From Candidatus Latescibacterota bacterium (GTDB lineage Bacteria > Latescibacterota > UBA2968 > UBA8231): 64,000 nt of DNA. This document shows, piece by piece, positions 39,671 through 57,719 of this stretch; within the stretch, counting starts at the first letter, position 1; each line of letters opens with the position of its first letter. Location: positions 3,552,001 through 3,616,000 of the forward strand of contig CBDETK010000013.1 of NCBI GenBank assembly GCA_965242865.1, in the 5' to 3' direction. A model generated the notes under the pieces. The model saw only the letters and a program-made list of their open reading frames with translations. It searched no databases and had not been told where the DNA came from. The position numbers and the translations under genes are program-made.

Positions 39671-39729
39671 GATTTCAAAGGGCAACCACGTCATTGATTC
39701 CAAAGGGCAACCACGAGGGTTGCCCCTAC
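39671..39729 (-). repeat. REP-like element, family A (GTAGGGGCAACCCTCGTGGTTGCCC) with partial 25-bp duplication
   Basis: GTAG + GGGCAACC/GGTTGCCC hairpin overlapping the SBP stop codon; aaagggcaaccacg occurs twice. Confidence 0.7.
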
Positions 39730-41306
39730 GGTGCCCAGTACCATGCGGGCAAACTGCGGAAAATTCCCATTGGCACGACCGATTCCAGGCCCCGCAGCGG
39801 CTGCCGCACCGCGTACATGACCGGCTCTCGACAAATAAAAATGGTGGGATGATCCGTTAGCAGATGGCGATGGATACTCCGGTAGATCGCTATGGACGCG
39901 GCCTCGTCGTAGGCCACCCGACCGGCTTCGATCAGCCGATCCACTTCGGCATTGACATAACCCGACTCATTGCGGGCGTCCTGCGAATGCCATTCAGACG
40001 CGGCTACATCGGGATCGAGGACATTGTATCCTCTCTCCAATACCATGTCGAACCGCGACCTCACGGAAGAGAGCACCTGCAGCGGCGCGGTCTGCATGAG
40101 CAGGTGAATCCCTACTTCTTCCAAGTCTTTCCGCAACTGGGCCGCGATGTCGTGCCGATGCGGCATCTCCTTGGCCATGACCAAGGTCAATTCCAACGCA
40201 TCCCGCTCGCGCAACCCATCCCCGGCCCCATCCACCCAGCCGGCCGCTTGCAGGATGGCCCGGGCGCGCCGCTGGTCTTTGACCGGCGTGGGCACCTGCG
40301 GATCGCCATAGACCGAGCCGGGCGGAAAAGGCCCGGCCACAAAGACCGAGTCCGCCGTTGCTTCCCCGCCGAGTAGGTGCCATATCGCTCGGCGATCAAT
40401 CGCGTAATGGAGCACCGCTCGCACGCGCGGATCGCTCAACACCGATTCCGAGCGACAGTTTAATTTTAAGGCTGCATAGGCCGGACTCGCCCCTTTGAGC
40501 ACCTTGAAGGCCGAGTTGTCGGCGATGCTTTTCAGATCGTCGAGCGCGGCGGACGGGGCCACATCGCTTTCGCCGCGCATAAACGCGGCCCATGCGTAGC
40601 GCGTGTCTGGGTAATCGCCGCGCACCTCCACGGTGTCTAGGTACGGACGCCCCCCGTAATAGCCCTCAAAGGCTACCAACCGCACGTGATCCTCGCCGAC
40701 CCAATTGGCAAAGCGGAACGGCCCCGACCCGATGGGATGCCGATTGAAGGGCAACTCGTCTAGCCCATAGCCGGCCGCCAACTGCGGCTCGACGAGGTGC
40801 TTGGGCAGAATGTGCAACCGCAAGGGCACTAGTGCCGACCCTTGCGGTGGAGCGGCGTAGTGCAGCCGCACAATGTCGTGGCTGAGTGCCTCAATCCGAT
40901 CAAAGCGCAAATCCTCCCCGCGCCGCTGCTCCTTCATCAACTGGAGCGTAAAGACCACGTCCGCAGCCGTCACTGGCCGACCATCGTGGAACTGGGCATC
41001 AGATCGCAGCAAGATGTCCCAAAACTTTTTCCTAGGGCTGAATGGCCAAGCTACGGCCAGGGCCGGGGTAAGCTGACCGGTGGGCTCTTCCGTGAATAGG
41101 CGTTCAAAGAGCAGGTCCAATACCTCCGTGCTCACGGTGTGAGAGGCCGTGAGTGGATTGATCGGCTCCATGCCCCCGGTTGCCCCAATTCGCACCCGGC
41201 CCCCATAGAAAGGCCCATCGCGGTCAGGCGCGCTGCACCCGAGGACGAGCAAAAACGCCCATATCGCGGTTGTGCCTGTGCTTGGGGGCCGGGCTGGCCG
41301 GACCAT
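39726..41306 (-). CDS. Orphan family-5 (oligopeptide) ABC substrate-binding lipoprotein
   Basis: Lipobox VLGC; FHDGRPVTAADVVFT; PIGSGPF; no permease or ATPase genes adjacent. Confidence 0.9.
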   Translation of the reverse strand: MVRPARPPSTGTTAIWAFLLVLGCSAPDRDGPFYGGRVRIGATGGMEPINPLTASHTVSTEVLDLLFERLFTEEPTGQLTPALAVAWPFSPRKKFWDILLRSDAQFHDGRPVTAADVVFTLQLMKEQRRGEDLRFDRIEALSHDIVRLHYAAPPQGSALVPLRLHILPKHLVEPQLAAGYGLDELPFNRHPIGSGPFRFANWVGEDHVRLVAFEGYYGGRPYLDTVEVRGDYPDTRYAWAAFMRGESDVAPSAALDDLKSIADNSAFKVLKGASPAYAALKLNCRSESVLSDPRVRAVLHYAIDRRAIWHLLGGEATADSVFVAGPFPPGSVYGDPQVPTPVKDQRRARAILQAAGWVDGAGDGLRERDALELTLVMAKEMPHRHDIAAQLRKDLEEVGIHLLMQTAPLQVLSSVRSRFDMVLERGYNVLDPDVAASEWHSQDARNESGYVNAEVDRLIEAGRVAYDEAASIAIYRSIHRHLLTDHPTIFICREPVMYAVRQPLRGLESVVPMGIFRSLPAWYWAP

Positions 41307-41425: not shown

Positions 41426-43345
41426 TTAAGCATCTTCGGCCACCGGCCGGCTCTCCGCGGCAAAATGGTTGACAACGACATCAACCATTCGCTGCTGCCC
41501 CTCCACGGCAACAATCGCCACGGCCGGCAAGCCGAACGAAGCCTCCAAGCGCTCCAAGTGCGCCTTTATCTCATCCTCGCTCATTTGGCGAGAAGAAACC
41601 CAAGTTTTGCCATAGACCGAGCGAGCGTGTTTCTCCTTGTCGCTCATCGCCAGTAATATAACCGGGGCTTTGCCCAATATGCGGATGCCATCAAGGGTGT
41701 CTTGGATATACGCATCCGAATCCGTGCTGTTGACCACCAGAATGCAGGCGTCCGGTTTGGTCCCCAACAAGAAGTGGATCGACGGCTCGGTATGGGAGTT
41801 GTGGTTGGCGACATCGTAGGGTATGGTGCCCGACTGGCAGCCGACCATCATGATATCCGGTTTTTTCGCCGCGTTAATCTCGCGCATCTTGTGGTCTAGG
41901 TACGGGCCGTAGTATTGCAACGGCAGGTCTCTGGGCACGGCGTAGCCCATGGGAAAGGAAAAATCCATCCCGAACAGGGCCGAATGATGCTCCGTACCAA
42001 GCTGACCAACCTTGTATCCTTGCTCAATCAGCTTCTGCCGCAATGCGAGTTGCAAGGTGAACTTGCCCTGTTGAGAGCTCGTGCCAAACACCCCGACCAC
42101 CGGCACATCCACGGCGCGCTCGGAACCTTGGGCCGCAAGGCACCGTTGGACATCGGCAAAATCGAAATCCGGGAACTCCAAGTGCAACCCCTTGCTCCGC
42201 GCCAAGTCGTACAGGTCGGCGTAGGTCTCTAAATCAACCGCTAAGAAGCTGAACACGTTGAGCCCCCGTTCCAACGCCGTTTGTATCGCCTCGCGCAGCA
42301 AGTCCTTTTTGCCCAACCGGGATAGCTGATCTACGTACCCCAACACGAGGGTATCGGCCCCTTCGAGAGCGTCCCCGAGTTTGGGGACAATGCGCACACC
42401 TAACGGTTCGACGCCAATGGCCGCGCCAGCGTCCTTGCCCACCAAGCCTTTGCCGACCGGGTCGGCAATGCCAGCGATGGTGAAACGCAAATGCTTCGCG
42501 TGGCGCACCAGCGCATGCATTTCCTTGTTGTACGGATACAGGGCCGCCCGGCCAATCCACTCGTAGCTGGGAAAACCCGGCCGCTCGACCGTGACCGGCC
42601 CAGGATCCTCCGACTCTAAGGCGTTTGCCGCCAAAATCTCCCGCACTGGAGTCAGCCCTGCTTTGGGAAAGTGCTGGCGGATCAGGGCGACAATCGCCGA
42701 TACGTGGGGCGCGGCAAAACTGGTTCCGCCGGTGATCGTCTCCCCTCCGTTTAGCCAGCACAGACGCTGCGGATCGCCCCGGGCCACGCACTCAATGGCC
42801 TGCCCGGGTCGGTAGTAGTACCCGTAGCGGTCGTAGATTTTTCCCCAAGTGACGCCTATTACGTCGGCCAACTCGGCTGGGTAGCTCTCCAAGCCCTCGT
42901 TGTGCTGGGAACCGACCAAGATCAGATTGGCTGCAACGGCCTTGCGGCAGATCTCGGCCAAGGGCCTCTTAGACGCGGGGTCAATCGTCCCCAAGCTGAG
43001 ATTGACCACGTCCATGCCTTCTTCTATGGCCCAAGCGATGGCCGCGACCAGCGACTGTCCATCCGTAGTCAGCGACTCGTCGAAAATGCGGATCCCGTAG
43101 AGTTCGGCTTCCGGGGCTAGTTTGCGGATAATGCCGGCGCAGGCCGTACCGTGACCGGCCTGGTCGGAAAAGTCTCCCTCGCGTTGGATACCGCCGTCGG
43201 CAAGCGCACACAACCCAACTCCGCCGGCAATAGTGCCGATCTTGGGGTGATTGGGTTCAATACCGCTATCGACTACCGCGACCTTGACTCCGCGTCCGGT
43301 CAATCGGGTAAAGTCGAGCGTCTGCAACTGCTCATTGGTTCTCAT
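41426..43345 (-). CDS. S8 subtilase fused to DUF1611-like (Rossmann + P-loop) domain
   Basis: Catalytic triad motifs VVDSG, HGT, GTSFAAP; no signal peptide; C-terminal GVFGTSSQQGKFT. Confidence 0.85.
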   Translation of the reverse strand: MRTNEQLQTLDFTRLTGRGVKVAVVDSGIEPNHPKIGTIAGGVGLCALADGGIQREGDFSDQAGHGTACAGIIRKLAPEAELYGIRIFDESLTTDGQSLVAAIAWAIEEGMDVVNLSLGTIDPASKRPLAEICRKAVAANLILVGSQHNEGLESYPAELADVIGVTWGKIYDRYGYYYRPGQAIECVARGDPQRLCWLNGGETITGGTSFAAPHVSAIVALIRQHFPKAGLTPVREILAANALESEDPGPVTVERPGFPSYEWIGRAALYPYNKEMHALVRHAKHLRFTIAGIADPVGKGLVGKDAGAAIGVEPLGVRIVPKLGDALEGADTLVLGYVDQLSRLGKKDLLREAIQTALERGLNVFSFLAVDLETYADLYDLARSKGLHLEFPDFDFADVQRCLAAQGSERAVDVPVVGVFGTSSQQGKFTLQLALRQKLIEQGYKVGQLGTEHHSALFGMDFSFPMGYAVPRDLPLQYYGPYLDHKMREINAAKKPDIMMVGCQSGTIPYDVANHNSHTEPSIHFLLGTKPDACILVVNSTDSDAYIQDTLDGIRILGKAPVILLAMSDKEKHARSVYGKTWVSSRQMSEDEIKAHLERLEASFGLPAVAIVAVEGQQRMVDVVVNHFAAESRPVAEDA

Positions 43346-43360: not shown

Positions 43361-45091
43361 TTAAGTATCCGCAAGCTGAGTTTTGAACAACTCCCAGTAG
43401 TGGCCTTTTTTCTCGATCAATTCGGCATGGGTGCCTTTCTCGACAATTTTTCCCTCGTCCATGCAGACGATCTCATCAACTTCTCGGATGGCACTGAGCC
43501 GGTGGCTAACGATGATGACCGTCTTGTCGTCGGCTTGGCCCTTGAGCCGGCGCAACAGCTTCTCCTCGCTCTCCGAGTCAAGGGCTGAGGTCGCCTCGTC
43601 CAGCACTACAATCTCAGGGTTTTTCAGCATCGCCCTCGCTAGTGCTATCCGCTGTTTCTGCCCACCCGACAGGTTGGCTTTAGAGTCGCATACCGTCGCC
43701 AAGGAGTCTTCGGGCGCGTGGATATCCGCGCCTTTGATCTCAAGTTCCGCCGCCGTGCGTTCAACCTCTTCTTTAGAACTATCCAACCGACCATAGCGTA
43801 TGTTTTCGAGCACCGAATCGCGAAAGAGCGGTGCTTCTTGCGACACCAAGCCGATGCGGTCCCGGTACTTGCCCAGACCAAAGGCCCTGCACGGCGCGTC
43901 GTCTATGGCGATCTCGCCTTTTTGCGGTTGGTAAAAACGACACAACAGATCGACGACCGTGCTTTTGCCGCAACCGCTCGCGCCGACGAGCGCGTACGTC
44001 TTGCCCTTTTCAATCTCTAAGTCAAAATGGCTGAGTACGGGGTGACCGTTGTAGGCAAACTCCACATCTTTGAACGCTATCTTCTCTTTGAACGAGAAGG
44101 GTTTGGCCTGCTTTGGCTCTACGTCAACCTCGGCTGGTACATCCATGAATTCCACAATCCGCCGCAGGGAAACCGACGCCCGTACGCAGTCTATGTACAG
44201 TTGGTTCAGGCTCTCTAAGGGGGCGAAGATGCGCATGAAGTACTGGAAAAAGGCGATGAGTGCCCCCAAACCGATCTCGCCCTGCATGACTTGATGCCCT
44301 CCCCAACCGAGGATGACGACAGGGGCCAAGGACATGATAAAGGACGCGATGGAACCAGCGGAAAGATTCAACGCGGTGCTGTGCATCTCCAGCTCGAACA
44401 ACTTCCCTTGTCGGCTGCCCAATTTGTCGCTCTCGTGCCTGTACGTGTTGTACGACTGGACGAGTTTGATGTTGTCGAATCGCTCAATAAAAAAACCTAG
44501 TATATCCGAAGTCGTGCGCTGGGTTGTCTCGGCCACCTTGCCTATTTTCGGCTGGAAGTACTTGAGATTCACGATGAAGCAGGGCACGAGCAGGCTCAGG
44601 CCGAGGAAGAGGGGAGCGTCCAGCCATATCAGCACCGCCCCCAAGCTGACCAGCGTCAGCACGCTGTTGACGAGCCTCAGTACGCTGGAGGTGAGCGTTT
44701 TCTGGACGACCTGCACATCGTTGTTGAGCCGATGGGCAATATCCCCGGTCTTGTTGCGTTTGAAGAAATTGAGCGGCAGGCGCAACAGGTGGCTGAACAA
44801 CTCGCTCCGCATCTCGAACACGACGCGATTGCCGACCCAGAGGTAGAGATAATTGGCGATGAAAGCACTGATGATGTTCAGGGCCATCATACCGAATAGG
44901 GTAGCCAGCAGGATGCCCAGCAGATAGTAATCTTCGTCGGGCAGCACTTCGTCAATGAGGATCATCAGGATATAGGGGAAGGCGAGTGAACTGGCTATCG
45001 CTAAAACCATGAAGACGAATACGATTGAACTTTGCCACCAGTACGGTTTGATGTACCGGGCGAAGCGCATTGCAAATTCTTTGAATACCAT
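43361..45091 (-). CDS. ABC exporter (TMD + NBD, no C39 domain)
   Basis: GASGCGKST, LSGGQKQR, LDEATSALD, SHRL. Confidence 0.95.
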   Translation of the reverse strand: MVFKEFAMRFARYIKPYWWQSSIVFVFMVLAIASSLAFPYILMILIDEVLPDEDYYLLGILLATLFGMMALNIISAFIANYLYLWVGNRVVFEMRSELFSHLLRLPLNFFKRNKTGDIAHRLNNDVQVVQKTLTSSVLRLVNSVLTLVSLGAVLIWLDAPLFLGLSLLVPCFIVNLKYFQPKIGKVAETTQRTTSDILGFFIERFDNIKLVQSYNTYRHESDKLGSRQGKLFELEMHSTALNLSAGSIASFIMSLAPVVILGWGGHQVMQGEIGLGALIAFFQYFMRIFAPLESLNQLYIDCVRASVSLRRIVEFMDVPAEVDVEPKQAKPFSFKEKIAFKDVEFAYNGHPVLSHFDLEIEKGKTYALVGASGCGKSTVVDLLCRFYQPQKGEIAIDDAPCRAFGLGKYRDRIGLVSQEAPLFRDSVLENIRYGRLDSSKEEVERTAAELEIKGADIHAPEDSLATVCDSKANLSGGQKQRIALARAMLKNPEIVVLDEATSALDSESEEKLLRRLKGQADDKTVIIVSHRLSAIREVDEIVCMDEGKIVEKGTHAELIEKKGHYWELFKTQLADT

Positions 45092-45118: not shown

Positions 45119-45463
45119 TCAGTAGAGTAGGTGCTTGACCGAACTCAAATCGGCCTTGTTGGTGATGACATCGTAGTACTTCACGCCTTTGAAGTTGAAA
45201 GCGAGCGGCTCGACCAAGTCGAACCAAGGCTTCAACTCGTTGTAGAAGATGACCGAAAGATGCGGCTTCTCCTGCACGGGAATATGGACGTTGACGACCG
45301 TGTTGTTCTCATCAATTACAAACACGGCTGGGGTCGGTTCGCCAAAGGGCGTCTCGTTGAAGTATCCGGTCGTGTCCGACGCCACCGGAAACGCAATCTG
45401 AAAAGTCCGCACATAGTCCGAGAACTTCCGCTTGCTCATCCTCGCGATGCAGTAGATGGGCAT
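45119..45463 (-). CDS. C-terminal half of an AhpC/TSA thioredoxin-like fold (possibly truncated)
   Basis: FPVASD...TPAVFVIDEN; no CxxC; no clear RBS. Confidence 0.5.
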   Translation of the reverse strand: MPIYCIARMSKRKFSDYVRTFQIAFPVASDTTGYFNETPFGEPTPAVFVIDENNTVVNVHIPVQEKPHLSVIFYNELKPWFDLVEPLAFNFKGVKYYDVITNKADLSSVKHLLY

Positions 45464-45568: not shown

Positions 45569-46216
45569 TTACGAAGTGAAGTACCGATCCAGCCAGTCTC
45601 GGATACCCTGCTCCGTCGCCTCTTCGTCGTCTTGGTCGCTATAGTGCCAGTTGAGCACCTCAAAGGCGTCATCTACTACAAACCAGACCGGCACGGACGA
45701 CCGGGCGTCCGACTGGAACAGCAGGGCTTCGAGTTGCTGCTCGGCCACGAAGGTGAAGGCGAAGGGCACGATACCCACCTTGTTCTTGATGGCGATCTGC
45801 TGCTTGATGTGTTCGTTGGCGTCGCCTACGACCAACAGCAATTTGCCGTGAGAGACGCCCTGCTGCGCCATGGCCTGCTTCCACTGGTCGAGTTGGGCAA
45901 ACAGGCAGGCTCCACAGGTCCGGCTCGTCGATACAACTACGACAAAAGGCTGGCCGTCCTCGGCGGCCGACTCGTCGAACTGGGCGAAGCGGCCCAAGTC
46001 CACCGATTCGAGCAGCTTGCGGTGTAGTTTGTTCTTGAGGGCGGCGTTGACCTCGTAGTTCCACTGGACGGTTTCCAAGTGTTTTAGCCGCTCGTTGAGG
46101 GTCTCCAACTCGTCGAGTCTGTCGGTATTGTCTCGGTGCAGGGCCAAGGCGACTGAGCCGAGGCCGAGAGACAACAGTAGCAGGGCTTTGGTTAGCTGAG
46201 TGGCATTCATGGTCAT
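45569..46216 (-). CDS. Membrane-anchored thioredoxin-like (CxxC) protein
   Basis: N-terminal hydrophobic anchor, TCGAC, VPVWFVVD; AAGGAG RBS. Confidence 0.7.
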   Translation of the reverse strand: MTMNATQLTKALLLLSLGLGSVALALHRDNTDRLDELETLNERLKHLETVQWNYEVNAALKNKLHRKLLESVDLGRFAQFDESAAEDGQPFVVVVSTSRTCGACLFAQLDQWKQAMAQQGVSHGKLLLVVGDANEHIKQQIAIKNKVGIVPFAFTFVAEQQLEALLFQSDARSSVPVWFVVDDAFEVLNWHYSDQDDEEATEQGIRDWLDRYFTS

Positions 46217-46228
46217 GGTCTCCTTATT

Positions 46229-47404
46229 CTACTGGCCGCCCCGCGAGCGGCTGAACGCACTCTTGCCAGCTCCCGTGCGATCGTTGATTCGATAGATGGC
46301 TACGTATGGATCGCTCGTCTCGCCGGTCGCTTCGTCGAGGGCATCCTCAACCACAAAATACAGTTCCATACCGTCAACCGTCAGCAGTCTATGGCTGGCG
46401 GGTAATCTGATGCCGTCGGCAACCGAATGGCCGTCCTTGTAAAAGAGATTTAGATAGTATTCCGGCTTACCGTTAACCACACGCCGGTATTGTGTAAGCA
46501 CCAGCAGGTCGGGACCGAATTCATAGAGTCGGGAACGGACAATGTGCTCGGCAAACCATTCGTTGTGCCGAGCGGTCCAATTGACCGGATCCAAGTCGGC
46601 GGGAAAAGGCTTGATCCGGTCCCGGTGCTTAGACTGGTACTCGCTAAACCAAGTCCGTTCCAACTGGCCCTGCTCGCTGTATTGGTGGATCTCGTAGGTC
46701 GTCGGGTAGATGAAGTAGAAGCCGCCTCCCCGCTTGGGAGTGAGCACGGTGTTATGATAGCGATTCAACGCCCGTCCGGTTCGTTTGTCTTCGACCGGAT
46801 ACAGGCCGGCAACTTTATTGAGGTTGTCGTCGAAGCGGAACAGCGCGTATTGGCCTTCCGCTCGCACCCCGGCCGAGCCGGCGTCAATGACGTCCACTTG
46901 TGCGCCATAAATATGGCCACCCGTGGTGAGCACAATATGGTCAATGAACTCAGGGTTGGGATCTGGCACCTGCCGCTTGAATTTATATGAATCGCCAGAG
47001 AAGAAGAGATATTTCCTACTTTCTCCCAAGCTGTAGAAATAGAAGTCTCCGTTAGGGGCCAACCGTGGTCTTAATGGATTGAAGTATTCGTCCTCGGCTC
47101 CTCCACGCACTCCAATTTGCCGCAGGTAATGGCCCTCGGCATCGGTCTGAAAAATCATATTCTGGATACCATCTAAAACAATGAGGTTGCCCTTAGCATC
47201 AACGAAGACGTAGCTAATCTGGCCCACAATGACATGCTCAGGCATTTGCAAATGGATGTCCCGATCCTTGACGAATGCCTCGTCAAACGTAAGGTCGGCT
47301 GCCGGTGGGGTGATTTCTATCCGGCCAGCAGGCTGGTCATCACCGCATCCGACCAGAGGCACCATAGTACCGACGATTGCGATGAACTGTATCCGATTTT
47401 TCAT
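46229..47404 (-). CDS. 6-bladed beta-propeller lipoprotein
   Basis: Lipobox LVGC; IGVRGGAEDEYFNP NHL-like blade; YEIHQYS. Confidence 0.75.
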   Translation of the reverse strand: MKNRIQFIAIVGTMVPLVGCGDDQPAGRIEITPPAADLTFDEAFVKDRDIHLQMPEHVIVGQISYVFVDAKGNLIVLDGIQNMIFQTDAEGHYLRQIGVRGGAEDEYFNPLRPRLAPNGDFYFYSLGESRKYLFFSGDSYKFKRQVPDPNPEFIDHIVLTTGGHIYGAQVDVIDAGSAGVRAEGQYALFRFDDNLNKVAGLYPVEDKRTGRALNRYHNTVLTPKRGGGFYFIYPTTYEIHQYSEQGQLERTWFSEYQSKHRDRIKPFPADLDPVNWTARHNEWFAEHIVRSRLYEFGPDLLVLTQYRRVVNGKPEYYLNLFYKDGHSVADGIRLPASHRLLTVDGMELYFVVEDALDEATGETSDPYVAIYRINDRTGAGKSAFSRSRGGQ

Positions 47405-47476
47405 AACATTTTCCTTGTGGATGGTTGGTGTTGAGCCACTATGTATTCATAAGGCTCAGTACCCGAAGATTCAGAG

Positions 47477-47512
47477 GAGTGGACCGGGGATCACTTTGAC
47501 CCCGGTCCACTC
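47477..47512 (-). other. Strong stem-loop downstream of peptide ORFs, module 1 (no U-tract)
   Basis: gagtggaccgggg-atcactttga-ccccggtccactc; near-identical copy at 52215-52250. Confidence 0.75.
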
Positions 47513-47598
47513 GCTCGTCAACGGCTCGGTGGTTGTTTAGCTACCCCTCCAGTGGCGATTCTATCGAATCAAGCAGGGCGGAAGGGCCTGCTGACTGA

Positions 47599-47742
47599 CT
47601 AGCCGCAGCAGCAGCAGAGGCGGCCCTCTCCAGAGCAATCAGCTTTCGGAGGACTGCTTTCGCAGATGGAGAGGGCGAATTCCAGCTGCGCCTCGACGGC
47701 CTGGCCGTAGGTGGCGCGTTGGGGTTTGTGCAGAGCGATCAT
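47599..47742 (-). CDS. Putative RiPP precursor, 47 aa: MIALHKPQRATYGQAVEAQLEFALSICESSPPKADCSGEGRLCCCCG
   Basis: AAGGAG RBS before ATG 47742; leader-like N-terminus shared with paralogues; six Cys in the C-terminal part. Confidence 0.8.
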   Translation of the reverse strand: MIALHKPQRATYGQAVEAQLEFALSICESSPPKADCSGEGRLCCCCG

Positions 47743-47938
47743 GATTATGCTCCTTGAGTAAGTGAATGGTTCTATTGAACCAAAGGGGGACGCCAAGGGC
47801 GTCGCGAAAGGGCCTCCTTATGAGAACCCTTGATAGGGCTGATACAGGCAGCGTCATGTTACGAGAAGGAACGGCAGATGCCTGCGTGGCTTCAATGGCC
47901 GAGCCGTAGCTTGTATTTACGGATGGATGCAGGGACAT
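47639..47938 (-). CDS. Precursor paralogue MSLHPSVNTSYGSAIEATQ... (long tail probably read-through/degenerate)
   Basis: GAGGAGG RBS; LH-x6-YGxA[IV]EA motif shared with 47599-47742; 3' part overlaps that ORF out of frame. Confidence 0.5.
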   Translation of the reverse strand: MSLHPSVNTSYGSAIEATQASAVPSRNMTLPVSALSRVLIRRPFRDALGVPLWFNRTIHLLKEHNHDRSAQTPTRHLRPGRRGAAGIRPLHLRKQSSES

Positions 47939-47971
47939 GGCTTCAGACCTCCTCGACTGTGAACGCTAGCT

Positions 47972-48052
47972 TTACCAGCGCGCCCCGAAAAAGGGCCACT
48001 GCACAGACCGCCGAAAGCGGCGGCGGTAACGGCGGTTGATAACGCGGTTCAT
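47972..48052 (-). CDS. Arg/aromatic-rich 26-aa peptide MNRVINRRYRRRFRRSVQWPFFGARW
   Basis: AAGAGGAGG RBS; first ORF after the sigma-54 promoter; translated by hand. Confidence 0.6.
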   Translation of the reverse strand: MNRVINRRYRRRFRRSVQWPFFGARW

Positions 48053-48149
48053 TGTTCCCTCCTCTTATGGGGTGGATGGAAAGCCTGCCCGTCGGCCCCT
48101 ATTCCTTAGTGGCCAACAACAGCTTGCTTTCGTGTTCACTTACTATATA

Positions 48150-48166
48150 AGCATATTCCGTGCCAA
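48150..48166 (-). promoter_or_regulatory. Sigma-54 -24/-12 promoter (module 1)
   Basis: TTGGCACGGAATATGCT, GG-N10-GC. Confidence 0.85.
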
Positions 48167-48256
48167 ACTGATTCTTGATAAAAGATAAACTACTAATAAA
48201 CATATACTTATAAAAAATTAAGGCACTTCATGCCAAACGCTGAATCGCGCTTCAAT

Positions 48257-48355
48257 TGCACCCTTTCGACGCACCTAACCCCCCATTTGCTCTCTATTTC
48301 TATTTTTTACAACAGTTTAGAGCAAGTGCGTTAAAAAGGACGCAGTGCGTCAAGG
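48257..48355. promoter_or_regulatory. Candidate bEBP enhancer sites (module 1)
   Basis: tgcaccctttcgacgca (48257) and tgcgttaaaaaggacgca (48327), 70 bp apart; conserved in module 2. Confidence 0.7.
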
Positions 48356-48603
48356 TCGACTTGGTCCACGACGAGTAGCGGAGTTAGAAACCAATCCTTT
48401 TTTAATGCGCTAACACCCATTCTCGCCTACTGCGTTCTGGCCGAGGCGTCCCCCTTAGTGTGCGTCTAAGACGGGAGGAGAATGGGGAGTGGAGGAATTG
48501 AAATTGAAACCGGACAACTTTACAGGTGAATGGACCGGACTGCGGATCTGGGCCTTAGAGCCTCTTTTCGTCCTCGCAATTTACGAGGTGGAGTAGCACC
48601 CTT

Positions 48604-49644
48604 TTATCTTAGAGATGAGAGATGCGAAAGCACCTCACCCAAGAGCGCGAACTCATCCTTTCTCAGGCGGCATAGTTCATCTTGGGCAAACGTTCGACCT
48701 TCCTTGGCCTTTTTGCCTCTCATCTGGTTTCTCAACACAACCATGCGGATCTGATTTGCGCGGCTGGCGATATCCGAGTATCTCCGGGCAAAACCGACCT
48801 CTTCGGGCAGGATCCCTTGGCCCTCCATGTACTCCAGCCGAGCGACCATGCACTTTTTGTGCTCCCAGAAAATACGCAAGGAGATAAGCAGCTCGTCCTC
48901 GGTCGCCTCCGGCTCATCAAGCAGCCCTGCGAGGAACTGGTAAGTATCCATCCCCCACAGGTCGCCGCGGTTTCTCGGTTCGGCGAGTATCCGCAACCGC
49001 GTTGAGGTGTTGCGAGACAGGTAGAGGTCGGTCAATTCCTCCCGGGCCTGCACTAAGTCAAAAGCACACTCAGCAGACGACCGGTAGTAGTAGAGCACAA
49101 CTTGAGGATTCTCAACCTTGTCCTGTAGCCAATCAGGGCCACCCTCCGGCCTAAACGCCGTGGATAACGCCCGCTCAAACTCGGCGAACCCCACGGCGAA
49201 ACGGCCGTAGCTCCCATCGCGGCCGTAGCCCGACGCAGTAAAAGTGCCTTGTCGCCAGTCAAAGCCGCTCAAAAGCAGTTCGTGAAGAAAATGAACCCGT
49301 TGGTAATACACGCCCTGTGGAATGTAAAAGTAGTCCACATCCAACTGCACGTAGTAATCCCTTTCGAGGCACTCCAAGACGAATTTTGTGACTTCATCCG
49401 GCTTGTCCCCGGCCAGTCGCCGGTCAACCCTATTGGATTCGAGCAAAGGGCAGGTGGAGAACTCTCGATAAAACGGATGGAGGTAGAAATTCAGCCCCCG
49501 TCCCTCAAACTGTCGCAACTGGATATAGTGACAATAGAACCACGGCCGGTACGCTGTGTCGCGGGCGAGGATCGAAAGCGGGTATAGATGGTGCATATAC
49601 CCGGTGATGGGCGGTTTGCCGATGGGCAAACACTTTTTCGTCAC
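48604..49644 (-). CDS. BtrH-like (papain-fold) putative acyltransferase/peptide-modifying protein
   Basis: YYVQLDVDYFYIP...HFLHELLLSGFD pattern typical of BtrH_N/C39-like folds; GTGA overlap with the GT4 gene. Confidence 0.55.
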   Translation of the reverse strand: MTKKCLPIGKPPITGYMHHLYPLSILARDTAYRPWFYCHYIQLRQFEGRGLNFYLHPFYREFSTCPLLESNRVDRRLAGDKPDEVTKFVLECLERDYYVQLDVDYFYIPQGVYYQRVHFLHELLLSGFDWRQGTFTASGYGRDGSYGRFAVGFAEFERALSTAFRPEGGPDWLQDKVENPQVVLYYYRSSAECAFDLVQAREELTDLYLSRNTSTRLRILAEPRNRGDLWGMDTYQFLAGLLDEPEATEDELLISLRIFWEHKKCMVARLEYMEGQGILPEEVGFARRYSDIASRANQIRMVVLRNQMRGKKAKEGRTFAQDELCRLRKDEFALLGEVLSHLSSLR

Positions 49645-50900
49645 GACGCGATCCTCGCTTTCGCGTCCGTGGTTCCTTGGAGGAGACGCATTAGCCGCCG
49701 TGCGGAAGCAGACCAGCTAAATCGAGGTCGATCCGGGGGGATTTGGGGCGGAAAACCAACCGTATAGGCTTGAGCCAATAGCCTCACCAGCGAATCAGCA
49801 TCGTCGAGTCCGTAATACCGCCCCTGCTTGCCTACCACCTCGTTCATTATCGGAATGTCGGGAACAATGACTTCCGTCCCGCAGGCCAACGCCTCCACCG
49901 CTGGCAGGCAAAAGCCCTCATCTACCGACGAGATCACCAGTGCTGCGGCACTGTGGTATAGAGCAGCCAGTTCGTCGTCGTCAACCCGACCGAGGAACCG
50001 GACTTGCTCCCCCAAGGCATTGGCTGCGACGGACCGTTCCAATTCGCTTTGGTACGCCCCGTAATCCCCCACCATCACCAACGGAGGACACAGCCCCCGC
50101 TCGGCCTTGAGCTCGGCCAACACCGAAAAGAGCCAGTCCAACCTTTTGCGCTTGTGTGCTAGCCCTACAAAGAGGAAGAACGGGGATTTTAGGCCGTGCT
50201 GGACCAGTACTCGGGCGATGGTTTCGCCATCCCGCTGGCCGCTGAAAATGCGCTCGTCAGCCGCCCCCGACACCACATCAATCTTCTCGTTGGAGATGCC
50301 GAGTATCTGTACAATGTCTTGCTTGACCGTATTGGAAACAGTGATCACCCCTTCGCATTGGGTCGCTAAACGTCTGTTCATAGCCCAGAAATAGTGGTGG
50401 AACACTTCTTTGCCTTCGGGCACATCCCCAAATCCAACTGTGTTGTGTCCAAGACGCTCACACGCCATCCTCATTTGCTCAAACTCCGACCGGCCGAATT
50501 TGGCTTGGAACGCCGCATCCGTATAGGTCGATAGATCGGGGTGCTTGAGCCGGATTAGGTCGTGGATAGTGAATATGTAGGGAACGGGCAGCAACGGATC
50601 AACGATATAATGGATTGAGTAGTACAAATTGACCCCTTCCCGGATAAGCCAATTCCGCAACCACGACGAATCGCGCACAAATCCACCGTCGTCCGGCACT
50701 TCCACGAAGCGGAGCCGACGAGTCAAACGCGGATTTTTCAGATCGGCTGCGATTTCACCACTGCGTCCCGGCCAAGCGATCACGGTCAGGCGGTAATCTC
50801 CATCGATTTCGTCGGCATCCAGCGCGTGCAACAGGGAAGTGCCATAGCGATAGATGCCGCTATAGTGGGTCGTGCGTAGGTCAAAGGCTAAATGGGTCAT
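49641..50900 (-). CDS. GT4 (GT-B) glycosyltransferase
   Basis: TIHDLI, ITVS, FVG, EGFCLPAVEALACG. Confidence 0.92.
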   Translation of the reverse strand: MTHLAFDLRTTHYSGIYRYGTSLLHALDADEIDGDYRLTVIAWPGRSGEIAADLKNPRLTRRLRFVEVPDDGGFVRDSSWLRNWLIREGVNLYYSIHYIVDPLLPVPYIFTIHDLIRLKHPDLSTYTDAAFQAKFGRSEFEQMRMACERLGHNTVGFGDVPEGKEVFHHYFWAMNRRLATQCEGVITVSNTVKQDIVQILGISNEKIDVVSGAADERIFSGQRDGETIARVLVQHGLKSPFFLFVGLAHKRKRLDWLFSVLAELKAERGLCPPLVMVGDYGAYQSELERSVAANALGEQVRFLGRVDDDELAALYHSAAALVISSVDEGFCLPAVEALACGTEVIVPDIPIMNEVVGKQGRYYGLDDADSLVRLLAQAYTVGFPPQIPPDRPRFSWSASARRLMRLLQGTTDAKARIAS

Positions 50901-50954: not shown

Positions 50955-51392
50955 TTAGCGGTCGGCTGGAATTTCCCGCTCCTTCTGCACCAACAGCGTT
51001 GCAGCACCCCCAGCCAACAACAAACCGCGCAACAGTGCCCAACCCAGCGAAGCACCCTCGTCGCCACCAAAACAACCGCACGTCACCTCGTTGCCGCGGT
51101 ACATATTGATGCCGAGCGCCGCACTAAAAACCACCAGTAGCCCCAAGATGACCAAGGCGTTACTGCGCGACCAGATGCCCAAGAGCAGAAGGCCGCCGGC
51201 AATCAGTTCAACCCAGACGACCGACAGCGCAAACGGCGCAGCCCAATCCACCGGGAGCATATCAAAGGCCGCGACCGTCTCGACGAAAGACGGTATTTGC
51301 ACGAGCTTTGCACTCCCCGCCCAAACAAAGACACCGCCCAACACCAGCCGGACCGTCAGAGCCAGATAGGGCCTGAGTGCAAGTCTGTCCAT
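50955..51392 (-). CDS. MauE/DoxX-family membrane protein
   Basis: RLVLGGVFVWAGSAK, VELIAG, CGCFG; TAATG coupling to the rhodanese gene. Confidence 0.88.
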   Translation of the reverse strand: MDRLALRPYLALTVRLVLGGVFVWAGSAKLVQIPSFVETVAAFDMLPVDWAAPFALSVVWVELIAGGLLLLGIWSRSNALVILGLLVVFSAALGINMYRGNEVTCGCFGGDEGASLGWALLRGLLLAGGAATLLVQKEREIPADR

Positions 51393-51868
51393 TAGAAAGG
51401 ACCCTCCGATTCCACGGGATAACCCGCTTCTTCCCATTGGGGAAATCCGCCCGCGAAGACGTAGATCTGCGTAAAATCCATCTCCGTTGCGAGCTTTTGC
51501 GCCAGTTTGGAGCCCAAGTTACACGTCGTCCCTGAACAGTAAACGACCAGCGCGGTATCCTTGGACAAGTCGGCCAATTCCGCGCCAAAAGCGGCGAGAA
51601 TCTCCGACGGTGGGACATTAAGAGCCCCGGGCACATGCCCCAACTGGTAGGGCCAAGAAGACCGAGCGTCCACGAACACAGCCGCCCTTTGGTCCAAGAG
51701 CCGTTTGGCCGTTGCTAAATCAATCAGATGCACACCATTTTCGGGCCGCTGGACCTCTTCTATTGCCAAGCTATGCAGTCCGCCGCTGGAGACGCCGATC
51801 GCCACTACCAGCAATGCCTTTCCAACAATTCGCTTCATCACAGCGAATCCCCTTTCTCCGGTAGTCAA
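51392..51868 (-). CDS. Exported rhodanese-like domain protein
   Basis: VDARS, GHVPGALNVP, VYCSGTTC, GGFPQW. Confidence 0.88.
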   Translation of the reverse strand: MTTGERGFAVMKRIVGKALLVVAIGVSSGGLHSLAIEEVQRPENGVHLIDLATAKRLLDQRAAVFVDARSSWPYQLGHVPGALNVPPSEILAAFGAELADLSKDTALVVYCSGTTCNLGSKLAQKLATEMDFTQIYVFAGGFPQWEEAGYPVESEGPF

Positions 51869-52137: not shown

Positions 52138-52214
52138 GATCGCCTATTCTTCCGTTTGCGGCGCACGAAACATGCTTCGTGAGGGCATGCTTTAGAAATA
52201 CCCGAAGATCAGCG

Positions 52215-52250
52215 GAGTGGACCGGGGATCACTTTGACCCCGGTCCACGC
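52215..52250 (-). other. Stem-loop downstream of peptide ORFs, module 2
   Basis: gagtggaccggggatcactttgaccccggtccacgc. Confidence 0.75.
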
Positions 52251-52269
52251 GCTCATCAACGGCTCCGTT

Positions 52270-52375
52270 CTACCGAACTAAGTCGTGCCAGCAAGACCGA
52301 CAAGGAACGATGGCGCCCTACGTGTCAACACAGGCCGGACCGTAGCTTGTATTTACGGATTGGATGCAGAATCAT
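52270..52375 (-). pseudogene. Degenerate precursor paralogue (as written: 16 aa MILHPIRKYKLRSGLC, 52325-52375)
   Basis: One extra base relative to the 47938 copy; corrected frame reads MILHPSVNTSYGPACVDT*GAIVPCRSCWHDLVR*; GAGGAGG RBS. Confidence 0.55.
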
Positions 52376-52409
52376 GGCTTCAGACCTCCTCTACCTTGGC
52401 TACCCAGGG

Positions 52410-52475
52410 CTAGGCCAGCGGGGACTGTTCGTCGAGCCGACGATACCTGATTTCGGCTAAGGGGTGCAGAGTCAT
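52410..52475 (-). CDS. 21-aa peptide MTLHPLAEIRYRRLDEQSPLA
   Basis: AAGAGGAGG RBS; LH-x6-Y motif; first ORF after the module-2 sigma-54 promoter. Confidence 0.6.
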   Translation of the reverse strand: MTLHPLAEIRYRRLDEQSPLA

Positions 52476-52565
52476 GGCGGACCTCCTCTTTATAGGGTGG
52501 ATGGAAAGCCGGCCCTTCAGCAGGTGCGGCCAAACGGCTTGCTTTCGCGCTCACCTATACACCAT

Positions 52566-52582
52566 AGCACATTCCGTGCCAA
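52566..52582 (-). promoter_or_regulatory. Sigma-54 -24/-12 promoter (module 2)
   Basis: TTGGCACGGAATGTGCT, GG-N10-GC. Confidence 0.85.
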
Positions 52583-52670
52583 ACGGAGCCGCAAAGCCGT
52601 AATTGATTGTTATACAAAGGGTTATAGAAAATGGGGGCCTTTCGTCCAAGTCGCCGAGTCGCGCTTCCAT

Positions 52671-52766
52671 TGCACCCTTTTGACGCACCTAACGACCTGT
52701 TTTATTTGTATCTCACGTCTTTACAATGGCTTAGAGCAAGTGCGTCAAAAGAGCCGCAGTGCGCTA
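52671..52766. promoter_or_regulatory. Candidate bEBP enhancer sites (module 2)
   Basis: tgcaccctttTgacgca (52671) and tgcgtcaaaagagccgca (52741), 70 bp apart. Confidence 0.7.
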
Positions 52767-52845
52767 AAAGTGACCGCGGGGGCCGTTGCGTGAGTTGCTC
52801 TCAATCGTTACGCTCAGGTTTATCCTTCGTTTGAGGAGTCGCGCC

Positions 52846-56228: not shown

Positions 56229-56417
56229 TCGCCCCCCCCCGGCGGCAGTGGCTCCATCCCCGTACCCGTGGGGGCGTCCCCCTGTGGACGCCCTCCCTTC
56301 CCTCGCTCATTCGCCCCCCCCCGGCAGTAATGGCTCCATCCCCGTACCCGTGGGGGCGTCCCCCTGTGGACGCCCTCCCTTCCCTCGCTCATTCGCGCCC
56401 TCCCCGGCGGTAGTGGC
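56221..56417. repeat. 82-bp tandem repeat (about 2.4 copies), each unit with a REP-like hairpin and a C9 tract
   Basis: tcgctcattc at 56221, 56303, 56385; gtgggggcgtccccctgtggacgccc hairpin. Confidence 0.9.
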
Positions 56418-57717: not shown

Positions 57718-57719
57718 GG

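What the first reader, a model, noticed from the sequence alone, without database searches (positions are those of the whole stretch)
47599..47742. Cys-rich precursor ending in CCCCG
47-aa ORF with a good RBS. Leader-like MIALHKPQRATYGQAVEAQ is followed by a core with C-x8-C-x6-CCCC-G. AVEAQ recalls the [TN][IV]EA leader ends of CLI_3235-type and NVEALA peptides (inference). Four vicinal Cys are unusual and could be sites of disulfides, S-glycosylation, S-acylation or metal binding.
Basis: partly seen in the sequence, partly recalled or inferred. Interest (0 to 1): 0.85.

Follow-up and report, generated by a model that had tools for sequence, protein, structure and literature searches.

The report
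Cysteine-rich secreted peptide with partner propeller
This is a real, conserved gene for a small cysteine-rich peptide with a leader, found in one group of uncultured sponge-associated bacteria, always beside a matching lipoprotein, and probably a new secreted antagonistic or signalling peptide.

Summary
The ORF exists as described, on the minus strand (47742..47599, 47 aa, AAGGAG 7 nt before the ATG). It is a gene. I found 24 distinct homologues (43-48 aa), with a near-invariant 19-aa N-terminus that carries synonymous changes. The core is variable and keeps C..C..CC; every member has 4 or 6 Cys. CCCCG is a local variant: 4 of 24 end in CCCC(G), and only CC is conserved.

The family occurs in 9 of 31 genomes of one Latescibacterota genus and in 0 of 92 genomes of other families. 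Each copy has its own invariant sigma-54 promoter about 400 nt upstream. In 13 of 14 copies a 6-bladed beta-propeller lipoprotein follows, and its clades track the core types.

The window's locus also holds:
- a membrane-anchored CGAC thioredoxin-like protein
- an ABC exporter without a peptidase domain
- a QhpE-like S8 protease fused to a TIGR04066-like DUF1611 domain
- a peptide-binding-type SBP, a histidine kinase and an NtrC-type regulator
- an upstream, similarly promoted ACP-rhodanese-MauE-GT4-BtrH-like operon

There is no radical SAM enzyme.

Best reading: a leader-cleaved, ABC-exported, disulfide-knotted polymorphic peptide, with the propeller as its cognate binder, most likely for immunity. 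No curated family matches the peptide.

The parts
47599..47742 (-). Precursor peptide gene, 47 aa: leader about residues 1-19, Cys-rich core residues 20-47
   Evidence: Translation; 24 distinct homologues; synonymous variation in invariant leader columns
47750..47755 (-). Ribosome-binding site AAGGAG, 7 nt before the ATG
   Evidence: Sequence; invariant in 6 of 6 aligned loci
48150..48165 (-). Sigma-54 (-24/-12) promoter TGGCACGGAATATGCT
   Evidence: Only match in the window. TTGGCACGG.A..TGC is invariant in 8 of 8 aligned promoter regions. Found at -372 to -433 before 13 of 13 peptide copies. No sigma-70-like site in 47300-48400.
48166..48351 (-). Conserved upstream region, a candidate enhancer-binding-protein site, including the palindrome GACGCACTGCGTC at 48351..48339
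   Evidence: Aligned and conserved across loci. A near-copy stands upstream of the second promoter at 52680-52780. Function inferred.
47743..48149 (-). Long conserved 5' leader region holding uORF1 (48051..) and uORF2 (47938.., a degenerate copy of the peptide's leader)
   Evidence: Alignment; present before 13 of 13 copies, but the uORF frames are not kept; no Rfam match
47477..47512 (-). 13-bp perfect inverted repeat (hairpin) between the peptide and propeller genes
   Evidence: the intergenic region folds with z = -5.3; no T-run, so it is not a canonical terminator
46229..47404 (-). 6-bladed NHL/DUF5128-type beta-propeller lipoprotein (lipobox LVGC), 391 aa
   Evidence: Sequence. PF17170 scores 22.4 bits against a cut-off of 22.9. 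AF2 pLDDT 84.5. Best PDB match 4raa BF0058, E 1.6e-13. Follows 13 of 14 peptide genes at 159-323 nt.
45569..46216 (-). Membrane-anchored thioredoxin-like protein with a CGAC motif, 215 aa
   Evidence: N-terminal hydrophobic segment. CGAC present in all 8 aligned segments that cover the motif. No Pfam hit, so the thioredoxin-like assignment rests on the motif and context.
45119..45463 (-). Truncated remnant (residues 123-238) of a 238-aa Redoxin/ResA-like protein; the CQPC half is missing here
43361..45091 (-). ABC exporter (transmembrane plus ATPase domains, 576 aa) without an N-terminal C39 peptidase domain
41426..43345 (-). Cytoplasmic S8 protease (QhpE-like) fused to a DUF1611/TIGR04066-like domain, 639 aa
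   Evidence: Pfam and NCBIfam. Motifs resembling subtilisin's D/H/S catalytic motifs (VVDSG, GHGT, GTSFA) are visible in the sequence (my reading). No hydrophobic N-terminus. PDB relatives are subtilisins and 2g0t.
39726..41306 (-). SBP_bac_5 solute-binding lipoprotein of the peptide/nickel-binding type, with no cognate permease beside it
   Evidence: Orthologues occur in 10 of 31 genus genomes. In the 7 loci examined (G130, G124, G138, G133, G141, G145, G144) the SBP lies in the locus.
37518..39662 (-). Sensor histidine kinase (dCache, HAMP, PAS, HisKA, HATPase)
36116..37516 (-). NtrC-type sigma-54-dependent response regulator
48604..49644 (-). BtrH_N-like protein, possibly a carrier-protein-dependent papain-like ligase or transacylase, 346 aa
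   Evidence: Weak PF14399 hit: E 0.075 here, 1.3e-5 for the paralogue. Low-confidence AF2 model whose best PDB hits are AziU2/U3 and CtaG. Sits next to S8-DUF1611 paralogues at 5 further places in the genus.
49641..50900 (-). GT4 glycosyltransferase
50955..51437 (-). MauE/DoxX-family membrane protein
   Evidence: PF07291, E 4.5e-29; weak HvfX hit
51392..51868 (-). Rhodanese-domain protein with an N-terminal hydrophobic segment
51865..52137 (-). Acyl carrier protein (GADS motif)
   Evidence: PF00550; weak TIGR04069 hit of 19.2 bits; sequence
52199..52587 (-). Degenerate second copy of the promoter/UTR/hairpin unit with the peptide deleted, in front of the ACP operon; -24/-12 element TGGCACGGAATGTGCT
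   Evidence: blastn; sequence

Best explanation
The ORF is the precursor gene of a genus-restricted family of leader-bearing, cysteine-rich secreted peptides.

Proposed course:
1. The SBP, the dCache histidine kinase and the NtrC-type regulator switch on the sigma-54 promoters. One promoter stands before every peptide cassette and before the accessory operons.
2. The 47-aa precursor has no Sec signal. It is recognised through its conserved 19-21-residue N-terminus.
3. The leader is removed in the cytoplasm by the QhpE-like S8 domain of the S8-DUF1611 protein.
4. The core is exported by the peptidase-less ABC exporter.
5. In the periplasm the CGAC thioredoxin-like protein, the Redoxin, MauE and the rhodanese fold the core into two disulfides (three in this window's 6-Cys allele).
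6. The mature peptide is bound by the cognate beta-propeller lipoprotein encoded directly downstream. I read this as self-protection against an antagonistic, bacteriocin-like peptide, with extra orphan propellers protecting against other alleles.

Shown: the gene is real and under protein-level constraint; the leader/core architecture; the gene set and its co-occurrence; the promoters; even Cys parity.

Inferred: cleavage and its site, export, disulfide formation, peptide-propeller binding, the immunity role and autoinduction.

Further tailoring by the ACP, BtrH-like and GT4 genes (acylation or glycosylation) is possible but not shown.
For: Real gene and leader/core split.

Cysteines:
- 20 of 24 peptides have 4 Cys, 4 of 24 have 6, and none has an odd number.
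- C27 and C43 are replaced together (I...ICCC) in 3 sequences.

Distribution:
- The peptide occurs in 9 of 31 genus genomes. There is 1 weak hit in another genus and 0 of 92 in other families.
- The propeller occurs in 9 of 31 genus genomes, 8 of them shared with the peptide.
- SBP orthologues occur in 10 of 31. In the 7 loci examined the SBP lies in the locus.

Promoter: invariant sigma-54 element in 8 of 8 and 13 of 13 copies, with no sigma-70-like site.

Propeller:
- It follows 13 of 14 peptide genes.
- It has a lipobox (G19 and C20 are at least 90% conserved).
- It is a confident 6-bladed model.
- Its clades track core types. The one exception (L006) has a matching-clade propeller third in the row.
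- Mantel r = 0.57, p = 2e-4, over 13 pairs.
- G144 keeps two intact sigma-54-driven propellers plus SBP-HK-RR with no peptide ORF. That fits protection or sensing better than maturation.

Protease and exporter:
- S8 against QhpE: 139 bits, E 1.3e-40. TIGR04066: 122.8 bits.
- The ABC exporter has no C39 domain.
- QhpE cleaves the QhpC leader before export through the ABC transporter QhpF (PMC7876137, passages).
- The CLI_3235-type cluster has the same accessory set (PMC10731318, passages).

Redox set: CGAC in all 8 aligned segments that cover the motif, CQPC in 3 of 3 full-length Redoxins, MauE at E 4.5e-29 and a rhodanese.

The accessory ACP operon carries a near-copy of the same promoter and upstream region.
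Against: - The orthologous S8-DUF1611 and ABC genes are deleted, leaving remnants, in G133 and G138, and were not found in G130. All three genomes keep intact peptide genes. So processing and export by these two proteins is not universal, or those strains do not produce the peptide.
- In this window the Redoxin is truncated and lacks its CxxC.
- No cleavage site, mass or activity is known.
- Peptide-propeller correlation is expected from linkage alone.
- A propeller-FGE-like fusion exists (P0038), and FGE-like or thioredoxin-like genes follow the propellers. These point as much to a periplasmic processing complex as to immunity.
- S8-DUF1611, BtrH-like and ACP genes also occur at loci without this peptide, so their substrate here is inferred.
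- The BtrH-like model is poor (pLDDT 63), and no Cys is invariant among its 6 homologues.
Confidence: 0.5

Rival explanations
1. Pheromone or kin-recognition peptide. The exported peptide is an autoinducer. The variable propeller lipoprotein is its specificity-determining receptor or co-receptor, and it feeds the SBP, histidine kinase and sigma-54 regulator. The alleles are pherotypes.
For: A two-component system and a peptide-type SBP without a permease always sit in the locus. Every cassette has the regulated promoter. Discrete core types are shared between species: an identical core occurs in G141 and G145. Propeller clades match the core types. Peptide-less genomes keep the propeller and the sensor.
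Against: The kinase and SBP are 75-87% identical across genomes, while cores differ by about 40-50%, so the sensor itself does not co-vary. Up to 8 propellers stand against 3 peptides in one genome, and rows of orphan propellers look more like immunity arrays.
Confidence: 0.2
2. The propeller is a periplasmic maturation scaffold or enzyme partner. It recognises the leaderless core after export and presents it to thioredoxin-like or FGE/PvdO-like partners for cysteine chemistry. Each core type therefore needs its own propeller.
For: P0038 is a propeller-FGE-like fusion. FGE-like or CGAC-protein genes directly follow the propellers. Propeller clades match core types.
Against: Intact propeller(+FGE) cassettes exist with no peptide gene in G144, and many orphan propellers exist in G133. 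The family changes fast (54-83% identity). No catalytic motif was identified.
Confidence: 0.15
3. The peptide is a small Cys-rich subunit, or a metal-binding peptide, that assembles with the propeller. This would resemble the small subunits of methylamine dehydrogenase or quinohemoprotein amine dehydrogenase, or a Cys4 metal site or metallophore taken up through the NikA-like SBP.
For: The accessory set parallels Qhp and Mau biogenesis: a QhpE-like protease, an ABC exporter and MauE. The SBP's best curated matches are nickel, opine and peptide binders. Four conserved Cys include a CC pair.
Against: No Trp is conserved (7 of 24 cores have one). There is no QhpD-type radical SAM and no haem subunit. 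Hypervariable cores and multi-allele cassettes are not expected of an enzyme subunit or metallophore. No permease stands beside the SBP.
Confidence: 0.08
4. A CLI_3235-type, radical-SAM-crosslinked (sacti- or ranthipeptide-like) peptide.
For: TIGR04066-like domain, ACP, S8 and ABC as in the published CLI_3235-type cluster.
Against: No ORF of 100 aa or more with CxxxCxxC exists in the 64-kb window. The best TIGR04068 match in the genome scores 86 bits against a cut-off of 500 and lies about 0.9 Mb away. The precursor does not match TIGR04065.
Confidence: 0.03
5. A chance ORF or a purely RNA-level element.
For: The surrounding 5' region is conserved at the DNA level, and its uORFs are not kept in frame.
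Against: The ORF is kept open, with the same start, an RBS and a Cys pattern, in 24 distinct sequences. Synonymous changes occur in invariant residues.
Confidence: 0.02

Closest known systems
CLI_3235-type Cys-rich peptide maturation systems (NCBIfam TIGR04065-TIGR04069; e.g. the SacP23 cluster of Paenibacillus polymyxa, PMC10731318)
   Same: A short leader (19 aa predicted for SacP23) and a Cys-rich core, with a TIGR04066-type protein, an ACP-type protein, a subtilisin-like protease and an ABC transporter in one locus.
   Different: No TIGR04068 radical SAM enzyme. The precursor does not match TIGR04065. S8 and the TIGR04066-like domain are fused. This system adds a propeller lipoprotein, periplasmic thiol-redox proteins and a sigma-54 two-component circuit, and it sits in a Gram-negative-type candidate phylum.
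Quinohemoprotein amine dehydrogenase gamma-subunit maturation (QhpC/QhpE/QhpF) and methylamine dehydrogenase MauE/MauD
   Same: A cytoplasmic subtilisin-like protease (the best curated match of the S8 domain), an ABC exporter for a leader-bearing small Cys-rich polypeptide, a beta-propeller partner in the periplasm and a MauE-family membrane protein.
   Different: Scores fall below the QhpE cut-off (139 against 165 bits). There is no QhpD, QhpG or haem subunit, and no conserved Trp for a quinone cofactor. The propeller has 6 blades and is lipidated. The cores are hypervariable.
Bacteroidales 6-bladed propeller lipoproteins (Pfam DUF5128/PF17170; PDB 4raa BF0058; DUF4221 3s9j)
   Same: Best fold match (E 1.6e-13, TM 0.61/0.67). 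PF17170 is precomputed on most homologues.
   Different: 12% identity, and the function of those proteins is unknown. My recollection that such Bacteroides propellers neighbour NVEALA peptides could not be tested here. PF14055 rang in neither this genome nor the 14 controls, and no paper holds the word NVEALA.
Autoinduced bacteriocin or lantibiotic loci with lipoprotein immunity (LanI-type) and two-component control
   Same: Works alike in outline: a precursor with a leader, a dedicated protease and ABC exporter, a lipoprotein encoded beside the peptide, two-component regulation, allelic diversity and orphan immunity-like genes. The comparison is recalled from general knowledge, not tested.
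   Different: No double-glycine leader, no C39 domain and no lanthionine enzymes. The putative immunity protein is a 390-aa propeller. Control runs through sigma-54.

Membership tests
CLI_3235 family precursor (TIGR04065) | Match to the precursor HMM (cut-off 26 bits) | tested here: not met
   0 NCBIfam hits at E<=10 for 13 of 13 peptides; no TIGR04065 match in the genome at E<=1
CLI_3235-type maturation system | Radical SAM maturase TIGR04068 in the locus | tested here: not met
   No CxxxCxxC ORF of 100 aa or more in the window; best genome match 86 bits against a cut-off of 500, at a distant site
CLI_3235-type maturation system | TIGR04066 family protein | tested here: inconclusive
   122.8 bits, E 1.6e-35, over residues 266-629, but below the curated cut-off of 200
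CLI_3235-type maturation system | ACP-related protein TIGR04069 | tested here: not met
   19.2 bits against a cut-off of 70; a generic ACP (PF00550) is present
Qhp system (quinohemoprotein amine dehydrogenase) | QhpE equivalog score; QhpD radical SAM; conserved Trp/Cys for the CTQ cofactor | tested here: not met
   139.1 bits against a cut-off of 165; no radical SAM; Trp in only 7 of 24 cores
NVEALA (PF14055) | Match to the Pfam model | tested here: not met
   No hit at E<=10 for 13 of 13 peptides. No hit in the genome, but the control genomes were silent too, so that search was uninformative.
DUF5128 (PF17170) 6-bladed propeller | Pfam gathering score; 6-bladed propeller fold | tested here: inconclusive
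   22.4 bits against a cut-off of 22.9 for this protein. PF17170 is recorded for most of 79 homologues. The fold is confirmed by AF2 and Foldseek.
RiPP (generic definition) | Ribosomal precursor with a conserved leader and a variable core | tested here: met
RiPP (generic definition) | Post-translational modification of the core by enzymes encoded in the locus | not testable with these tools
   Candidates only: thioredoxin-like, MauE and rhodanese (disulfides); DUF1611, ACP, BtrH-like and GT4 (acylation or glycosylation). No chemistry data.
Double-glycine-leader bacteriocins | GG/GA cleavage motif and a C39-peptidase ABC transporter | tested here: not met
   No GG in the leader; the ABC transporter starts with its membrane domain at residue 23 and has no peptidase domain

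The most novel reading that the evidence does not exclude
The locus is a previously undescribed type of polymorphic peptide system. Cassettes of peptide, cognate propeller lipoprotein and a thiol-redox or FGE-like partner each carry their own sigma-54 promoter and act as toxin/immunity or self-recognition alleles in sponge-associated Latescibacterota. The peptide is matured by a radical-SAM-free route: the S8-DUF1611 fusion, with an ACP and a papain-like BtrH/CtaG-type ligase, cleaves the leader and then acylates (or, with GT4, glycosylates) a disulfide-knotted core. That would assign a first function to the TIGR04066/DUF1611 and DUF5128 families.
Probability: 0.2. Interest if true: 0.85.

Novelty: new variant of a known kind. 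Interest (0 to 1): 0.62.

Why it matters
- It defines a peptide family that no curated model covers, in a candidate phylum with no cultured members.
- The gene set offers testable functions for three families of unknown function: DUF5128-type propeller lipoproteins, TIGR04066/DUF1611 'peptide maturation' proteins, and their fusion to S8 proteases. More than 500 relatives of the fusion protein appeared in the protein search, the best 120 of which all carry both domains, some named from Spirochaetales.
- If the propellers are cognate binders, the cassettes are a compact natural set of peptide/receptor pairs.
- If the peptides are antagonistic, they are new disulfide-rich antimicrobial scaffolds from sponge symbionts.

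Tried and rejected
- Radical SAM reading: rejected.
- Curated precursor families (NCBIfam, Pfam, NVEALA): no match.
- Rfam on the 5' region: 0 matches at E<=1.
- uORF1 and uORF2 as conserved coding genes: rejected, because the frames are not kept among 13 copies. uORF2 is a degenerate copy of the leader.
- Canonical intrinsic terminator after the peptide: not found. There is a hairpin without a T-run.
- Expression: no RNA holder listed among 22 runs. The laid runs were contigs only, so nothing can be said about transcription.
- Habitat: four 'sponge metagenome' runs hold 0.29-0.38 of the sampled words. One was laid and carries a 98%-alike leader/UTR contig. I treat this as a hint only.
- Variability mapping on the propeller: entropy peaks fall at residues 62-67, 77-82, 109-114, 124-130, 150-153, 177-185, 313-316 and 337-344. 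A loop-class comparison gave 0.79 against 0.97 bits. This is not decisive without coordinates.
- Mantel test: significant, but linkage alone explains it.
- BtrH-like structure: the model is poor (pLDDT 63), so the CtaG and AziU2/U3 hits are only a lead.
- Literature searches:
  - NVEALA: 0 papers.
  - DUF1611, TIGR04066, CLI_3235: 6 papers.
  - DUF5128, DUF4221, BF3164, PF17170, PF14055: nothing relevant.
  - MauE, precursor peptide, beta-propeller, subtilisin-like: 1 review.
  - Latescibacter + RiPP + sponge: 15 papers. I read passages of one, and it lists only antiSMASH classes.
  - DgcN: the 5 of 810 hits that were listed were unrelated.
  - I therefore found no description of this family in the held library. 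Supplementary files were not seen.
- Paralogous S8-DUF1611 loci in this genome (L028, L029): a crude scan for short Cys-rich ORFs found no obvious precursor.
Full report
OBSERVATION

The ORF is on the minus strand, 47742..47599. It encodes MIALHKPQRATYGQAVEAQLEFALSICESSPPKADCSGEGRLCCCCG. AAGGAG lies at 47755..47750, 7 nt before the ATG.

IS IT A GENE?

A search of 5.8 billion protein clusters returned 12 further proteins of 43-48 aa. All begin MIALHKPQRA... and have divergent C-terminal halves. A profile of these found copies in genomes, and 14 distinct sequences were read from the loci. The union is 24 distinct peptides.

Among the 14 genome copies, ten leader positions are invariant. Seven of them (L4, K6, R9, Q14, V16, E17, A18) carry synonymous codon variants, which marks selection on the protein. 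The RBS is invariant in 6 of 6 aligned loci.

Public contigs add two points. A near-identical strain has three synonymous changes and one G13D change in the gene. Another contig is 98% alike over the UTR and leader but stops matching at 47674, about codon 23, which is the leader/core boundary.

THE FAMILY

- Leader: residues 1-19 are near-invariant.
- Core: x(1-3)-E-[FY]-x4-C-x(6-8)-C-x(5-8)-CC-x(0-1).
- Cysteine counts: 20 of 24 peptides have four Cys and 4 of 24 have six. None has an odd number.
- In three sequences C27 and the first Cys of the terminal run are replaced together (I...ICCC). This is what a C27-C43 disulfide would predict, although it may be a single evolutionary event.
- CCCC(G) occurs in only 4 of 24, so it is an allele feature. 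The window's peptide is the 6-Cys form.

No curated family matches:
- Pfam, 13 of 13 members at E<=10.
- NCBIfam, 13 of 13 at E<=10.
- TIGR04065 in the genome.

DISTRIBUTION

The four titled genome records are Candidatus Latescibacterota MAGs. Among 168 genomes of the phylum:
- the peptide is in 9 of 31 genomes of the window's genus (G000 included);
- one weak 20-residue match occurs in a second genus;
- it is in 0 of 92 genomes of the 13 other families.

There are one to four copies per genome.

NEIGHBOURHOOD IN THE WINDOW (MINUS STRAND; CALLS 5, 6, 7, 15, 46, 48, 61, 81)

Downstream of the peptide:
- a 391-aa lipoprotein (lipobox LVGC) that is a 6-bladed propeller
- a 215-aa membrane-anchored protein with an invariant CGAC motif
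- the C-terminal remnant of a 238-aa Redoxin, whose CQPC half is missing here
- a 576-aa ABC exporter without a peptidase domain
- a 639-aa protein with a compact subtilisin domain (VVDSG, GHGT and GTSFA motifs visible, no signal peptide), whose best curated match is the QhpE leader peptidase (139 bits, cut-off 165), fused to a DUF1611 domain that matches TIGR04066 'peptide maturation system protein' (122.8 bits, cut-off 200)
- an SBP_bac_5 lipoprotein
- a dCache histidine kinase
- an NtrC-type sigma-54 activator

Upstream, with overlapping genes: ACP, rhodanese, MauE/DoxX, GT4 and a 346-aa BtrH_N-like protein.

No ORF of 100 aa or more in the 64 kb has a CxxxCxxC motif. The genome's best TIGR04068 match scores 86 bits against a cut-off of 500, far away.

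REGULATION

The only TGGCAC-N5-WTGCW site in the window is at 48165..48150 on the gene's strand. TTGGCACGG.A..TGC is invariant in 8 of 8 aligned promoter regions. The element lies 372-433 nt before 13 of 13 peptide copies. No sigma-70-like site is present.

The same promoter, with its upstream region, also precedes orphan propellers and the Redoxin-ABC-S8 block in other genomes. A degenerate copy of promoter, UTR and hairpin, with the peptide part missing, sits at 52587..52199 in front of the ACP operon. I therefore take both operons as one regulon under the adjacent regulator; this is inference.

SBP orthologues occur in 10 of 31 genus genomes. In the seven loci I examined the SBP lies within the locus.

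THE PROPELLER

- AF2 gives a confident model (pLDDT 84.5).
- The best solved match is the Bacteroides fragilis exported protein BF0058 of unknown function (4raa, E 1.6e-13), followed by NHL domains.
- The protein scores just under the PF17170 cut-off. Most of its 79 homologues carry that Pfam mark.
- It follows 13 of 14 peptide genes at 159-323 nt. Eleven of 24 propeller genes in the loci examined have no peptide of their own.
- It is found in 9 of 31 genus genomes, eight of them shared with the peptide. G123 has only a contig-end fragment of the peptide. G144 has two intact, sigma-54-driven propellers and the sensor genes but no peptide ORF.
- On a tree of the 24 propellers the clades follow the core types. 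The one exception (L006) has a propeller of the matching clade third in the row.
- Core and propeller distances correlate (Mantel r = 0.57, p = 2e-4, 13 pairs), which linkage alone could produce.
- Secreted FGE-sulfatase/PvdO-like genes follow many propellers, and P0038 is a propeller-FGE fusion.
- The repeating cassette is peptide, propeller, then FGE-like and/or the CGAC protein.

THE PROTEASE AND EXPORTER ARE NOT UNIVERSAL

Orthologues of S8-DUF1611 at 88% identity or more are in G000, G141, G124, G145, G123, G125 and G118. In G133 and G138 only remnants remain in the locus, and G130 has none. All three keep intact peptide genes.

Paralogues at 37-62% identity occur in 20 of 31 genus genomes at other loci. 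At five further places they lie directly beside BtrH-like genes, and in this genome's paralogue loci an ACP lies close by.

The protein search found 549 relatives of the S8-DUF1611 protein at E<=1e-10. The best 120 all carry both domains, and some are named from Spirochaetales.

The BtrH-like model is poor (pLDDT 63). Its best PDB hits are AziU2/U3 and CtaG. CtaG is described as a papain-like ligase acting on carrier-protein-bound substrates (PMC12865890, start of abstract in the search listing). No Cys is invariant among six homologues.

INTERPRETATION

The anatomy matches a leader-dependent, Sec-independent export route known from two systems.

- In the Qhp system, the subtilisin-like QhpE removes the 28-residue leader of the Cys-rich QhpC before export through the ABC transporter QhpF (PMC7876137, passages).
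- The CLI_3235-type cluster SacP23 combines a 19-aa leader with a Cys-rich core, an ABC transporter, a subtilisin-like protease, TIGR04066, an ACP-related protein and a radical SAM enzyme (PMC10731318, passages).

Here the radical SAM enzyme is missing. In its place stand periplasmic thiol-redox proteins and MauE. Together with even Cys parity, these point to disulfides.

I read the paired, fast-evolving, often multiplied lipoprotein propeller as the cognate binder of the mature peptide, most likely an immunity protein. Two observations favour this: propeller-only cassettes with sensors persist in G144, and rows of orphan propellers exist. A receptor role or a periplasmic maturation scaffold remain serious rivals; the fusion to an FGE-like domain favours the scaffold.

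Not shown: cleavage, export, disulfide formation, binding and any biological activity.

WHAT COULD NOT BE DONE

- The Atlas did not hold the sequence.
- No RNA run was listed.
- Supplements were not seen.
- My recollection that Bacteroides DUF5128-type propellers neighbour NVEALA peptides could not be tested.

VERDICT

The finding is a real and previously undescribed precursor family with an unusual, well-defined gene set. It is a new variant of the leader-peptide, protease and ABC-exporter kind. Interest 0.62.

Noticed in passing
window 47743-48149 (-): A ~400-nt conserved 5' region lies between the sigma-54 promoter and the peptide. uORF1 (48051.., strong RBS, MNR[VF]I...) and uORF2 (47938..) sit in it. 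The first ~19 codons of uORF2 are a degenerate copy of the peptide's leader. The frames are not kept among 13 copies, so the region may act as RNA or as short regulatory uORFs.
   Followed up: partly
window 47477-47512 and 52213-52245 (-): A 13-bp perfect inverted repeat lies after the peptide gene, and the region folds with z = -5.3. The same hairpin is kept at 93% identity in the peptide-less degenerate copy before the ACP operon. It may be an attenuator or an mRNA-stability element.
   Followed up: partly
window 52199-52587 (-): A degenerate duplicate of the promoter/UTR/hairpin unit has lost its peptide gene. Its -24/-12 element reads TGGCACGGAATGTGCT and now heads the ACP-rhodanese-MauE-GT4-BtrH-like operon.
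   Followed up: yes
G000:C13:2916196-2919367 (L028) and G000:C13:3227834-3229714 (L029): Two paralogous S8-DUF1611 genes (61% and 37% identity) lie elsewhere in the same genome. One sits with an ACP, a BtrH-like gene, a histidine phosphatase and a GT4. The other sits with an ABC exporter, an ACP, a kinase-like gene and a sigma-54 regulator. A crude scan found no precursor, so their substrates are unknown.
   Followed up: partly
L003 11518-19073; L004 15863-16756; L006 14242-15192; L025 7513-8490; L030 7902-8879; protein P0038: Secreted FGE-sulfatase/PvdO-like genes alternate with propeller genes. One database protein is a propeller-FGE fusion. The window's own locus has no such gene.
   Followed up: partly
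window 45119-45463 (-): The Redoxin (CQPC) gene is truncated to its C-terminal half in this genome. The sigma-54 promoter that precedes it in other genomes is also missing here.
   Followed up: yes
window 52786-54582 (+); L004 236-2068, 7567-9387, 12272-14119; L005 12155-13684: AAA-ATPase_like + PDDEXK_9 genes recur inside and beside these loci. They may be mobile and involved in the rearrangements and deletions seen between genomes.
   Followed up: no
window 54951-58644 (-): Two ABC-3 (Mn/Zn/Fe-type) permease genes are fused to iron-dependent-repressor C-terminal domains, an unusual fusion just beyond the locus.
   Followed up: no
L024 17222-17356; L006 15645-15845: Short in-locus remnants of S8-DUF1611 show that the protease and exporter block was deleted independently in two complete genomes that keep peptides and propellers.
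   Followed up: yes
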